Of a stretch of DNA of 64,000 bases, positions 27,089-32,828 are shown one piece after another. Origin of the DNA: Candidatus Hodarchaeota archaeon. Its GTDB lineage: Archaea; Asgardarchaeota; Lokiarchaeia; Sigyniarchaeales; SOKP01. Position 1 is the stretch's first letter, and each line of letters begins with the position of its first letter. Location of the stretch: NCBI GenBank assembly GCA_048886685.1, contig JBHLKM010000012.1, forward strand, positions 17,576 through 81,575, in the 5' to 3' direction. The notes below the pieces were generated by a model that was not told the DNA's origin, did not search any database, and saw only the letters and a list, made by a program, of their open reading frames with translations. A program made the position numbers and the translations under genes.

Positions 27089-27631
27089 TTATGCAAATCT
27101 TTGCTTTTCTTTGTGCTCTTTTACGGAAATTTCTCTTTCACTAAGTCTTTCAAGTTTTATTAAAGTATCTTGAATTGCCTTAATTTCTACCCTAGTATTG
27201 ATTTTATATTTTTTTAATTTATCAAGCATTTCTTTTTCACTATAACCTTTATTGTAAACCTCCTTGAATGCCTGAATGGTATCTTGATGGTAGGAGATGT
27301 ACTGTTTGTTTAAAAAGATTATTAACCATTTTTTTTTCTGTTGGTCTTGGGATAATCTAAACATCCCATCTCTGATTTTCTCAATAGGCTTATTGAACTT
27401 TCTTGCAATTAATTCATCCTCAATCTTGTAAAATTTTTTGATAAATCTGTGGAGTTTATTTTTAAGAAAGAACCTTGGGATATATGAAAGTAAAAACGTC
27501 ACTAATGTTATTCCAGCCATCCAAATGGCTGCAAATGGATTAAAAAATGCTATAATAACAATTATTATGACAAGAATTAAGAACCATCTTCGTCCTATAC
27601 TTTTAAAAATAACTATATATTTTTTTGGCAT
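27089..27631 (-). CDS. hypothetical membrane protein
   Basis: Two N-terminal TM segments, basic soluble domain. Confidence 0.7.
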   Translation of the reverse strand: MPKKYIVIFKSIGRRWFLILVIIIVIIAFFNPFAAIWMAGITLVTFLLSYIPRFFLKNKLHRFIKKFYKIEDELIARKFNKPIEKIRDGMFRLSQDQQKKKWLIIFLNKQYISYHQDTIQAFKEVYNKGYSEKEMLDKLKKYKINTRVEIKAIQDTLIKLERLSEREISVKEHKEKQRFA

Positions 27632-27719
27632 ATTTATCTAAAATTTTGCAATTAATTGTAATATATCTTATCATTGATTACATAAAAAAATTATTTATAG
27701 AAAAATGTAGGAGAATTTA

Positions 27720-27940
27720 TTACTTATAACCACATAAAATAGCGTGACCGGGTATTATCCTTGTAAGCCATGACCGTAAGCGGACTTACAGCTTATAGTT
27801 TCCCACAGATTTCACTTACAACACGGAGTGAGTTGTAAATCGTAACTGCAGTACTATCTATAACGCTAACCAGTTTAACTTCCGGGTTCGGATGGTTCCA
27901 GCGCTGTAGCGAAATGCTACCTTTTTATGTGGATAGGTAA
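27720..27940 (-). repeat. inverted repeat / precursor stem enclosing the permuted 5S RNA
   Basis: CCACATAAAA (27730-27739) with TTTTATGTGG (27923-27932), extended by 27720-27727 with 27933-27940 and an inner AGCG/CGCT pair. Confidence 0.75.
27746..27895 (-). rRNA. rrf: 5S rRNA, circularly permuted gene with helix IV expansion segment
   Basis: 3' half CCAUCCGAACCCGGAAGUUAA...AGUAC...GGGAAA...GCUGUAAG (27895-27785), UCCG linker, then 5' half CUUACGGUCAUGGC...UACCCGGUC (27780-27746); helices I-V can all be paired. Confidence 0.85.
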
Positions 27941-27978
27941 CTATGTCTTTACCATTTAATAAGTCCGGTTATTTACAG

Positions 27979-28094: not shown

Positions 28095-28658
28095 ATGATA
28101 TTTCAAATAATTATCCGAGAAGTACAGTGGTACCAGTATTTAATAAATATTTTAATCACAGTAATAGGTAGATTACTTGATTTGCTTAGCACGCGATATG
28201 TATCAAAAGAATTAAAATTGGAGACGAATATATTGGCTAAACGTATTGGTTGGAAGGGAATGGTTTTTATGCAGATACCTCTTGTGGTTTTAGGTGCATT
28301 AGACTTTTATTTTAGCTTCTTTATTTTATGGTGGAGTATATTACTATTCGCTAACAATATAGAAGGGAGCTGGTATATAAAAGAAACAGGAGAAGCAAAC
28401 TATCATAGAGAATTAGTATCCCGAGTAAAAAAATCCACCGGATGGAAAATCCTGTTCAGTGAAATTTCATATATTATAAAATTTTCAATAGCAGGGATTT
28501 TTATTATTATTTTCTTATTTATATATTATGATCTATTAGCTGTATTTTTAATTGCATTAGCTTTAATCATACAAGGAATTTTTGGGACAATTAGTTCAAT
28601 TTTTTATCTTCTTAATTTAAAAAAAAGTAAATCTCAAGAAGACCCTGTATCTGAGTAA
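28095..28658 (+). CDS. hypothetical polytopic membrane protein
   Basis: 4-5 hydrophobic segments; LDLLST...ETN motif. Confidence 0.7.
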   Translation: MIFQIIIREVQWYQYLINILITVIGRLLDLLSTRYVSKELKLETNILAKRIGWKGMVFMQIPLVVLGALDFYFSFFILWWSILLFANNIEGSWYIKETGEANYHRELVSRVKKSTGWKILFSEISYIIKFSIAGIFIIIFLFIYYDLLAVFLIALALIIQGIFGTISSIFYLLNLKKSKSQEDPVSE

Positions 28659-31265: not shown

Positions 31266-32828
31266 ATGTCCTATGAATTAGAAGATATTTCGGGAATTGG
31301 TAAATCAATCGCGGAAAAAATGAAAGCGGCAGGAATAGATTCAATTGAAAAACTGGTTGCTGTAAAACCCAATGATTTAGTAAAATTAAAAATAAAAGGC
31401 GTAGGAAAGGCAACAGCAGAAAAAATTATTACTAGTGCTAAAGAGATTTTTGAGGAAGTAGGTGGAAAAATAAAGTCTTCAGTAGTAATAAAAGAAAAAA
31501 CTGAGGAGGATGTTACTTCAAAACCTAAACCAAAACCAGATTCTAAGGTAAAAGGATCTGAAATAAAAGAATTAATTAGACAACAAGCAGAATGTAATAT
31601 TGGTCTTGTAGGCCATGTAGATCACGGTAAAACCACCTTAGTTAAATCTTTAACAGGGGATTGGACTGATCGACATTCTGAAGAGCAAGAAAGAGGCATT
31701 TCGATAAAATTAGGATATTCTAATGCGACGATTCTTTATTGTCCTTCATGTAATGAATATACAACTGCCTACCTTGCAGAAAAAAACAGGAAGAAGGGAC
31801 AACCTCGATTTATTTGTTCAAAATGTAATGGTAACTTAGAATTTAGGCGTAATATTTCTTTTGTAGATGCACCAGGTCACGAGATTTTGATGGCAACCAT
31901 GTTAAGTGGAGCCTCCTTGATGGATGGAGCATGTCTTTTAATAGCTGCTGACGAACAATGTCCTCAACCTCAAACTCGGGAACATTTAGCTGCTTTAAAT
32001 ATTGCAGGGATTAAAAATATTATAATATTGCAAAATAAAATTGATGCTGTTTCTCGAGAACAAGCTTTAGAAAATTACCAACAGATCAAAGAATTTGTAA
32101 AAGGTACAGTAGCTGAGAACGCCCCAATTATACCTGTATCAGCAGTTTTTGAGTCAAATATGCATCTTGTTGTGAAAGCTTTTGAAGAAATAATCCCAAC
32201 TCCAGAGTTTAAAGAAGATGAATCATTTCAATTTTTAATAGCAAGATCGTTTGATATTAATCGCCCTGGTAAAGAGATTATTGATTTAAAAGGTGGTGTA
32301 ATAGGGGGATCTGTATTAAAAGGAAAAATTGAAGTAGGGGATCAAATAGAAATTAAACCAGGAATTCGTATTAAGGATGAATATATCCCGATAAAATCTA
32401 AGGTAGTAAGCATTAGTCAAGGAAATAATTATTTGAAAACTGCTAAACCGGGTGGATTAATAGGTTTAGGTACAAACTTAGATCCTGCTTTAACTAAAGG
32501 TGATCATCTAATTGGACATTTAGTTGGAGGACCTGGAACTCTTCCAGGAATATTAACTGAAGTTGAGTTAAATGTCCATCTTTTAGATCGAGTGATTGGT
32601 TCTGAAGTCCAAATGAAGGTTCAACCTCTCAAACATGGCGAAAAATTGTTATTAGTTGTTGGGACAGAAAAGACTGGAGGAACCGTAACAAAAATATTAA
32701 AAAATTCGACTATAATAAAACTTACTCCACCTATATGTCCTCCTGAGAACTTCATTTATGCAATTTCTCGTATAATTAATAGACGTTATCGTTTAATAGG
32801 ATATGGTGAAGAAATTAATCATACTTAA
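31266..32828 (+). CDS. eif2g: translation initiation factor aIF2 gamma with N-terminal HhH extension
   Basis: GHVDHGKT, ERGISIKLGY, Zn knuckle, DAPGHE, QNKID, RSFDIN, YRLIGYG. Confidence 0.95.
   Translation: MSYELEDISGIGKSIAEKMKAAGIDSIEKLVAVKPNDLVKLKIKGVGKATAEKIITSAKEIFEEVGGKIKSSVVIKEKTEEDVTSKPKPKPDSKVKGSEIKELIRQQAECNIGLVGHVDHGKTTLVKSLTGDWTDRHSEEQERGISIKLGYSNATILYCPSCNEYTTAYLAEKNRKKGQPRFICSKCNGNLEFRRNISFVDAPGHEILMATMLSGASLMDGACLLIAADEQCPQPQTREHLAALNIAGIKNIIILQNKIDAVSREQALENYQQIKEFVKGTVAENAPIIPVSAVFESNMHLVVKAFEEIIPTPEFKEDESFQFLIARSFDINRPGKEIIDLKGGVIGGSVLKGKIEVGDQIEIKPGIRIKDEYIPIKSKVVSISQGNNYLKTAKPGGLIGLGTNLDPALTKGDHLIGHLVGGPGTLPGILTEVELNVHLLDRVIGSEVQMKVQPLKHGEKLLLVVGTEKTGGTVTKILKNSTIIKLTPPICPPENFIYAISRIINRRYRLIGYGEEINHT

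What the first reader, a model, noticed from the sequence alone, without database searches (positions are those of the whole stretch)
27720..27940. Circularly permuted 5S rRNA gene inside a dedicated precursor stem
Seen on the minus strand: the 3' two-thirds of a 5S rRNA (CCAUCCGAACCCGGAAGUUAAACUGGUUAGCGUUAUAGAUAGUACUGCAG...CUGUGGGAAACUAUAAGCUGUAAG, 27895-27785) comes first. A UCCG linker follows, and then the missing 5' third (CUUACGGUCAUGGCUUACAAGGAUAAUACCCGGUC, 27780-27746). Helix I (GCUGUAAG/CUUACGGU) becomes a hairpin capped by UCCG. Helix II (GCUUACAAG/CUGGUUAGC, 2 mismatches), helix III (ACCCGG/CCGG-AA-GU), helix V (UUAUAG/CUAUAA) and loop E (AGUA/GAAA) are all present. The break lies in loop C, and rejoining gives UCCCAUCCGAAC. 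The new ends are held by AGCG/CGCU, a side hairpin GUAGC-auuuc-GCUAC and a stem of about 18 bp (core CCACAUAAAA/UUUUAUGUGG). A TATA box lies upstream and U-runs downstream. Known: permuted tRNA (Thermofilum) and SRP RNA (Thermoproteus) genes are restored by splicing-endonuclease cleavage and ligation, and permuted 5S RNAs occur in brown-algal mitochondria. I do not know of a permuted prokaryotic 5S gene. Inference: the ribosome carries either a covalently circular 5S or one opened in loop C, and standard rRNA finders would report only a partial hit.
Basis: partly seen in the sequence, partly recalled or inferred. Interest (0 to 1): 0.95.

Follow-up and report, generated by a model that had tools for sequence, protein, structure and literature searches.

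The report
Permuted, intron-bearing Asgard 5S rRNA gene
This Asgard archaeon encodes its only detectable 5S ribosomal RNA back half first, between tRNA-splicing-type cut signals and with a 30-base intron, so a normal 5S can only arise by cutting and rejoining, probably into a 120-base ring; environmental RNA of close relatives shows exactly that joint.

Summary
Confirmed and extended. Window 27895-27746 (minus strand) is a circularly permuted 5S rRNA gene, the only 5S found in its genome. (1) The new ends form a bulge-helix-bulge (BHB)-type splice motif. Its predicted cuts are the best of 289 cut pairs at restoring canonical 5S (27.7 to 42.7 bits). (2) The 30-nt loop D insert (27839-27810) is itself a canonical BHB intron; removing it leaves 120 nt (51.5 bits).

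RNA contigs of relatives cover only the predicted product. Three studies show the exact joint, two as closed 151-nt contigs that also span the helix I tetraloop; a fourth shows it as loose ends. Permuted genes occur in 24 of 32 Asgard families sampled, including closed genomes, with five different breakpoints; 84 of 106 loci have the motif at the 5S-restoring register. The genome encodes two EndA subunits and RtcB.

Closest precedent: the permuted, circular SRP RNA of Thermoproteus. No paper searched reports a permuted prokaryotic 5S gene; one reports that Heimdallarchaeum 5S could not be found. Not shown: RNA from this organism, intron removal, or that ribosomes carry the ring unopened. The scan found this layout earlier in at least 45 other genomes.

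The parts
27955..27962 (-). TATA-like box (TTATTAAA) with a purine-rich BRE-like stretch just upstream; predicts a start near 27932-27935
   Evidence: Sequence; spacing of 22-24 nt to the outer stem in 33/35 loci; start site inferred, not mapped
27923..27932 (-). Leader arm of the outer precursor stem (10 bp with 27739-27730)
   Evidence: conserved across the genus
27906..27920 (-). Leader side hairpin (5 bp, 5-nt loop)
   Evidence: conserved with compensatory variants
27895..27905 (-). 5' strand of the excision BHB/BHL motif: outer AGCG (27905-27902), central CUGG (27901-27898), bulge AA|C; cut before 27895
   Evidence: the joint seen in RNA of relatives lies at this site
27840..27895 (-). 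5S exon 1: loop C (3' part), helix III 3' strand, loop B, helix II 3' strand, helix V, loop E, helix IV 5' strand
   Evidence: RF00001 alignment; covariation in the permuted core
27810..27839 (-). 30-nt canonical BHB intron in loop D: central UUAC/GUGA, bulges GA|U and AA|U, 7-bp intron helix, helix IV as exon helix
   Evidence: 4/4 central, 7 intron and 6 exon pairs; removal gives the modal 15-nt region (59 loci) and 51.5 bits; the same geometry with changed sequence in 6 other genomes. Removal not observed in RNA
27785..27809 (-). 5S exon 2, first part: helix IV and V 3' strands and helix I 3' strand (natural 3' end at 27785)
27781..27784 (-). UCCG tetraloop joining the natural 3' and 5' ends of helix I
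   Evidence: Linker is 4 nt in 101/112 loci, UUCG in 49; spanned by RNA contigs
27746..27780 (-). Natural 5' third of 5S: helix I and II 5' strands, loop B, helix III 5' strand, first 2 nt of loop C
27741..27751 (-). 3' strand of the excision motif: central CCGG (27751-27748), bulge UC|A (cut after 27746), outer CGCU (27744-27741)
27730..27739 (-). Trailer arm of the outer precursor stem
27682..27707 (-). U-rich tracts, likely archaeal terminator
   Evidence: Sequence; function inferred

Best explanation
This is the organism's working 5S rRNA gene, stored in permuted order. A precursor of about 230 nt is transcribed from the TATA promoter and its leader pairs with its trailer. The splicing endonuclease EndA (two-subunit, alpha2beta2-like) cuts the relaxed BHB motif at 27896|27895 and 27746|27745, and RtcB ligates the ends, restoring loop C. 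The same enzymes remove the 30-nt loop D intron. The product is a 120-nt 5S whose natural ends are sealed by a tetraloop, so it is a covalent ring, which most likely enters the large subunit as such. Shown: gene order, both BHB geometries, their covariation, the exact joint in RNA of type-A relatives, and the presence of the enzyme genes. Inferred: that EndA and RtcB do the work (about 0.9), that the intron is removed (about 0.88), that the ring stays closed in ribosomes (about 0.7).
For: Best of 289 cut pairs is the BHB-predicted one. 84/106 loci have a 4/4 central helix plus at least 3 outer pairs at the 5S-restoring register, against 0, 0, 0, 0 at offsets -4 to -1 and 1, 15, 0, 2 at +1 to +4; several misses are anchor errors of my script. 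The leader strand tracks helix III: wherever helix III reads CCAG or UCAG and the row was anchored correctly, the leader reads CUGG. Discarded bulge bases vary while retained ones do not. Five breakpoints each restore canonical 5S. RNA contigs of four studies cover only the predicted product and none of its flanks; the joint 1645 to 1525 has zero ambiguous letters in three runs, and two contigs are 151 nt (121+30) and span the joint and the linker. The ligated joint was not found in JGI metagenome DNA or in any Lokiarchaeia-type genome. EndA (two genes, one with the Y/H/K catalytic residues, one lacking the His) and RtcB are present, as is uL18. 19 of 33 ARAGORN tRNA calls carry introns. Permuted genes sit in closed, long-read-checked genomes (PMC11291895).
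Against: The RNA evidence is from relatives laid on L008 at 85% or more identity, not from this genome, and from assembled contigs rather than reads. A closed assembly loop can arise from a mixture of a cut, unligated form and a ligated, reopened form. The excision motif in this genome lacks the exon-side helix, so it is a relaxed hBH/BHL motif. Intron removal was not observed, and the profile score does not fix the intron's register (shifts of 2-3 nt score 52-53 bits). 16S and 23S are unassembled in this genome, so a missed canonical 5S cannot be excluded from this assembly alone.
Confidence: 0.85

Rival explanations
1. The ring is only an intermediate. After ligation the helix I tetraloop is cut out, giving an ordinary linear 5S of about 116 nt, as for permuted tRNAs.
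For: Permuted tRNAs mature this way, with intervening sequences as short as 1 nt (PMC3978253). P. furiosus 23S is circularised and then reopened (PMC7758197). Contigs cannot show RNA ends.
Against: The linker is 4 nt in 101/112 loci and mostly UNCG-like, which looks like a kept cap rather than a spacer. RNA contigs run unbranched through both linker and joint, with no precursor flanks. The SRP RNA precedent stays circular (PMC4731332), and 23S can be circular in ribosomes (PMC12918454).
Confidence: 0.25
2. The 30-nt loop D insert is a retained expansion segment, so the mature RNA is 150 nt.
For: Retained 5S insertions exist, for example in Halococcus morrhuae (PMC7812874). No RNA from an insert-bearing genome was laid.
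Against: The insert has complete canonical BHB geometry, kept through sequence change in 7 genomes. Removal restores the modal length exactly. Inserts of 30-31 nt with BHB geometry also sit in helix IV, loop C and helix I of relatives, and loop C is a highly conserved, contact-forming loop (established 5S knowledge).
Confidence: 0.1
3. The RNA is cut from the precursor but not ligated, and works as a linear permuted 5S open in loop C (like brown-algal mitochondrial 5S).
For: Linear permuted 5S RNAs exist in stramenopile mitochondria (PMC4267664).
Against: Those open at the three-way junction, not in loop C. The ligated joint is present in RNA of four studies.
Confidence: 0.04
4. Misassembly, tandem-duplication remnant or pseudogene.
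For: The genome is a 47-contig assembly with 8.4% contamination and no 16S/23S.
Against: The locus is in 33/35 genus relatives and 111/124 family genomes, in synteny and in closed genomes. It covaries (18 of 26 pairs with two-sided changes) and is found in RNA libraries.
Confidence: 0.01

Closest known systems
Permuted, circular SRP RNA of Thermoproteus tenax / T. uzoniensis (Plagens et al. 2015, PMC4731332)
   Same: Permuted single-copy gene of a universal RNA, missed by annotation; TATA promoter; leader and trailer form a BHB; cut by a heterotetrameric EndA; ligation restores a functional loop; product circular.
   Different: Here the RNA is ribosomal, the layout spans 24 families of a phylum instead of two species, at least five breakpoints exist, and the gene carries its own BHB intron. 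Cleavage was tested in vitro there, not here.
Circularly permuted tRNA genes (Cyanidioschyzon merolae, Thermofilum pendens; PMC3978253, PMC3218864)
   Same: 3' half before 5' half, BHB at the new ends, circular product, varied junction positions, some with introns.
   Different: tRNA circles must be reopened for the CCA end and have linkers of 1-74 nt; the 5S linker is a near-fixed tetraloop and 5S needs no free ends (inference).
Permuted mitochondrial 5S rRNA of brown algae (Valach et al. 2014, PMC4267664; Rfam mtPerm-5S)
   Same: 5S with helix I closed as a hairpin; missed by standard models.
   Different: Those stay linear and permuted, open at the three-way junction, with no splicing. This locus did not match that family.
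BHB-mediated circular pre-16S/23S rRNA and circular or permuted 23S of archaea (PMC12918454, PMC7758197)
   Same: rRNA excised at a BHB processing stem and circularised.
   Different: Those genes are in normal order and the BHB lies outside the mature ends; PMC12918454 states this applies to 16S and 23S but not 5S. Circular 5S species of Halobacterium and Sulfolobus have variable ends and are read as decay products (PMC12558985).

Membership tests
5S rRNA (RF00001) | Helices I-V, loops A-E and conserved loop C / loop E motifs | tested here: met
   (after reordering; the spliced product folds as 5S in the MFE)
5S rRNA (RF00001) | Gathering score of 38 bits in genomic order | tested here: not met
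   23.2 bits, as expected for a permuted gene. Rfam could not be run on the rejoined sequence; an nhmmer profile was used instead
5S rRNA (RF00001) | Incorporated in the large ribosomal subunit | not testable with these tools
   uL18 gene present; no ribosome data
EndA/RtcB-restored permuted RNA genes (SRP RNA, tRNA) | 3' part encoded before 5' part in one transcript | tested here: met
EndA/RtcB-restored permuted RNA genes (SRP RNA, tRNA) | BHB-type motif at the new ends whose cuts restore the canonical sequence | tested here: met
   (relaxed form in this genome, full BHB in several other families)
EndA/RtcB-restored permuted RNA genes (SRP RNA, tRNA) | Ligated joint present in RNA | tested here: met
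   in relatives with the same breakpoint; this genome's own RNA not examined
EndA/RtcB-restored permuted RNA genes (SRP RNA, tRNA) | Cleavage by the splicing endonuclease demonstrated | not testable with these tools
   Genes present
Circular mature RNA (SRP-like end state) | The functional molecule is covalently closed | tested here: inconclusive
   Closed 151-nt contigs span joint and linker, but contigs cannot show ends
Archaeal BHB intron | 4-bp helix, two 3-nt bulges, flanking helices; removal restores the uninterrupted gene | tested here: met
Archaeal BHB intron | Spliced form seen in RNA | not tested
   Reads were laid on an intron-less relative
Stramenopile mtPerm-5S | Linear product open at the three-way junction; match to the mtPerm-5S model | tested here: not met
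   Break in loop C, joint ligated; no such Rfam hit

The most novel reading that the evidence does not exclude
Most Asgard lineages build ribosomes with a covalently closed 5S rRNA made wholly by tRNA-splicing enzymes from a permuted, often intron-bearing gene whose breakpoint and introns move among close relatives. The permuted state may be ancestral in the phylum, with normal-order 5S regained in a few families.
Probability: 0.62. Interest if true: 0.94.

Novelty: new variant of a known kind. Interest (0 to 1): 0.88.

Why it matters
It explains a documented gap: the paper on closed Heimdallarchaeum genomes says 5S genes could not be predicted (PMC8813620), and a 3.08-Mb closed genome of matching size holds two permuted copies. 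It would be the first ribosomal RNA gene in prokaryotes that needs splicing to restore its order, and the first 5S with BHB introns, as far as ten literature searches show. It makes tRNA-splicing enzymes essential for ribosome assembly in the closest prokaryotic relatives of eukaryotes. It gives a small testable substrate, about 230 nt, for EndA and RtcB. The moving breakpoint offers a model for how archaeal introns and permutations transpose. It also means rRNA-based quality standards undercount Asgard genomes.

Tried and rejected
Rfam gathering scan of the window: no hit. An unguided search for the best BHB-like pairing was too noisy in the AU-rich flanks and mostly returned the outer stem; it was replaced by the register-fixed test. 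Searches of JGI metagenome contigs for the ligated joint and for intron-less or intron-bearing alleles of this sequence found nothing, which says nothing about RNA. The intron has no second copy in the genome, so there is no direct sign of recent mobility. Unconstrained MFE folds of the precursor do not show the BHB; the motif rests on covariation and the RNA joint. The sigma-70 promoter scan is not informative for an archaeon. The tree of the downstream gene is a quick one on 180 columns with no root, so it shows interleaving of breakpoints but not direction.

Full report
Observation. The region from loop C to the natural 3' end comes first, then a UCCG linker, then the natural 5' third. RF00001 finds only this locus in the 4.4-Mb genome, at 23.2 bits against a cut-off of 38. 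A canonical-5S profile and a permuted model (95 bits) also find no other copy. The 16S and 23S genes are not assembled, so this genome alone cannot exclude a missed copy. Single-contig genomes of the same genus (G005, G021) and of other classes have no over-cut-off 5S either. The organism's name is not given; Lokiarchaeia is my inference from relatives' genome sizes.

Re-permutation test. A profile built from 11 normal-order 5S genes of a sister family scores the native stretch at 27.7 bits. Of 289 ways to cut and rejoin near the ends, the best is 27746 joined to 27895, at 42.7 bits. The rejoined loop C region occurs exactly in canonical 5S genes of other archaea.

The excision signal. Just inside it lies a splicing motif: a 4-bp central helix CUGG/CCGG with a 3-nt bulge 3' of it on each strand, AA|C and UC|A. 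Archaeal splicing endonuclease cuts after the second bulge base (established tRNA-intron geometry), and those two cuts are exactly the best pair above. The exon-side helix is missing, so this is a relaxed motif. The genome encodes two EndA subunits of about 200 aa, one with the Tyr/His/Lys residues and one without the His, plus RtcB. Heterotetrameric enzymes have the most relaxed recognition (PMC4731332). ARAGORN calls introns in 19 of 33 tRNAs.

Relatives. The locus is in 33 of 35 genus relatives and 111 of 124 family genomes. The permuted core covaries: 18 of 26 pairs show two-sided changes, 88% of cells pair against 33-48% for slid controls, and six of the eight pairs of the hairpin helix I change on both sides. 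Across the phylum I read permuted genes in 24 of 32 coded families, normal order in six (f2, f12, f15, f17, f21, f31) and nothing in two. A 3.08-Mb closed genome matching Heimdallarchaeum in size carries two permuted copies, and that paper says its 5S could not be predicted.

Five breakpoints, one rule. The break lies in loop C here (type A), at three neighbouring positions of the helix III bulge in most other lineages, and in loop B in G037. In each type the motif's cuts restore canonical length. At the restoring register, 84 of 106 loci have four of four central pairs and at least three outer pairs; other registers give 0, 0, 0, 0, 1, 15, 0 and 2, the 15 being a slide along the same helix. 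The loci are related, so these are not independent trials. The leader strand changes with helix III (CUGG opposite CCAG or UCAG, CGUG opposite CACG), and bulge bases that leave with the leader or trailer vary while retained ones do not.

RNA evidence. Fourteen metatranscriptome runs hold part of a type-A relative's locus, L008. Four runs from four studies were laid on it. Coverage is confined to 1525-1645, the predicted product, with none in leader or trailer. Three runs show the joint 1645 to 1525 with no ambiguous letters. Two contigs are 151 nt, which is 121 plus 30, a closed assembly loop that includes the helix I linker. The fourth run shows the joint as loose ends. The joined form was not found in DNA collections for this group. 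Limits: these are relatives, and contigs cannot show molecule ends.

An intron in this gene. The excised piece here is 150 nt, against 120-121 in most relatives. The extra 30 nt (27839-27810) form a canonical BHB: central UUAC/GUGA, bulges GA|U and AA|U, a 7-bp intron helix, and helix IV as the exon helix. Removal gives the 15-nt region seen in 59 loci, a 120-nt product, a 5S-like fold and 51.5 bits. Removal has not been observed.

Mechanism. Transcription from the TATA box gives a precursor whose leader and trailer pair. EndA makes four cuts and RtcB two joins, yielding a 120-nt 5S with its natural ends sealed. The linker is 4 nt in 101 of 112 loci and UUCG in 49, which suits a permanent cap. 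I put the odds that the ring is the ribosomal form at about 0.7; the alternative is reopening at the tetraloop as in permuted tRNAs.

Evolution (inference). Types A and B share leader and trailer almost to the base; only the enclosed 5S is rotated by 16 nt. On a tree of the downstream gene they are interleaved: 7 changes, at least 4 forced by well-supported branches, and this genome's nearest neighbour is a type-B gene with a loop C intron. The breakpoint therefore moved more than once or the cassette recombines. Both strands of helix III contain CCGG, so either can serve as the central helix. Reverse splicing with reverse transcription and local DNA duplication are both possible; L120 shows an insert copied from adjacent 5S sequence.

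Comparison and novelty. It works like the permuted SRP RNA of Thermoproteus and meets the tested criteria of that class. It is not the brown-algal type, which stays linear. Ten literature searches found no permuted prokaryotic 5S gene and no 5S intron; the library lacks most subscription papers. This scan has noted the same layout in at least 45 other genomes. I derived the motif and breakpoint types before consulting those notes. Verdict: a real new variant of a known kind, interest 0.88.

Noticed in passing
L153, L154 (G081, G070) and L218, L219, L220, L222 (family f10): A further hairpin of about 30 nt sits between the leader motif and the 5S start; in L153/L154 the first ligation would create a second BHB, implying nested two-step splicing.
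   Followed up: partly
L162 (G073), downstream of the model hit: A second permuted 5S unit starts about 45 nt after the first, so this family may have tandem permuted units; its motif register looks one base off.
   Followed up: no
L223 (G188:C2:29256-29407): Normal-order 5S gene with about 30 extra nt after helix III; a possible intron in an unpermuted 5S.
   Followed up: no
L120 (G260), loop C: A 31-nt BHB insert that contains a copy of the adjacent 5S sequence; looks like a newly born intron.
   Followed up: partly
L057 (G042) and L044 (G037): Permuted 5S genes with elaborate leaders; G037 has a breakpoint in loop B seen nowhere else in my sample.
   Followed up: partly
window 27089-27631 (-) and 28095-28658 (+): Two membrane-type ORFs of 180 and 187 aa with no NCBIfam match flank the 5S gene and are syntenic across the family (57 and 39 loci).
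   Followed up: partly
G000 whole genome: ARAGORN finds only 33 tRNAs, 19 with introns, including a tRNA-Sec call and doubtful calls such as tRNA-Pyl; non-canonical introns probably hide others.
   Followed up: no
window 31266-32828 (+): The translation initiation factor 2 gamma-like ORF carries an N-terminal extension that looks like a helix-hairpin-helix domain, by eye only.
   Followed up: no
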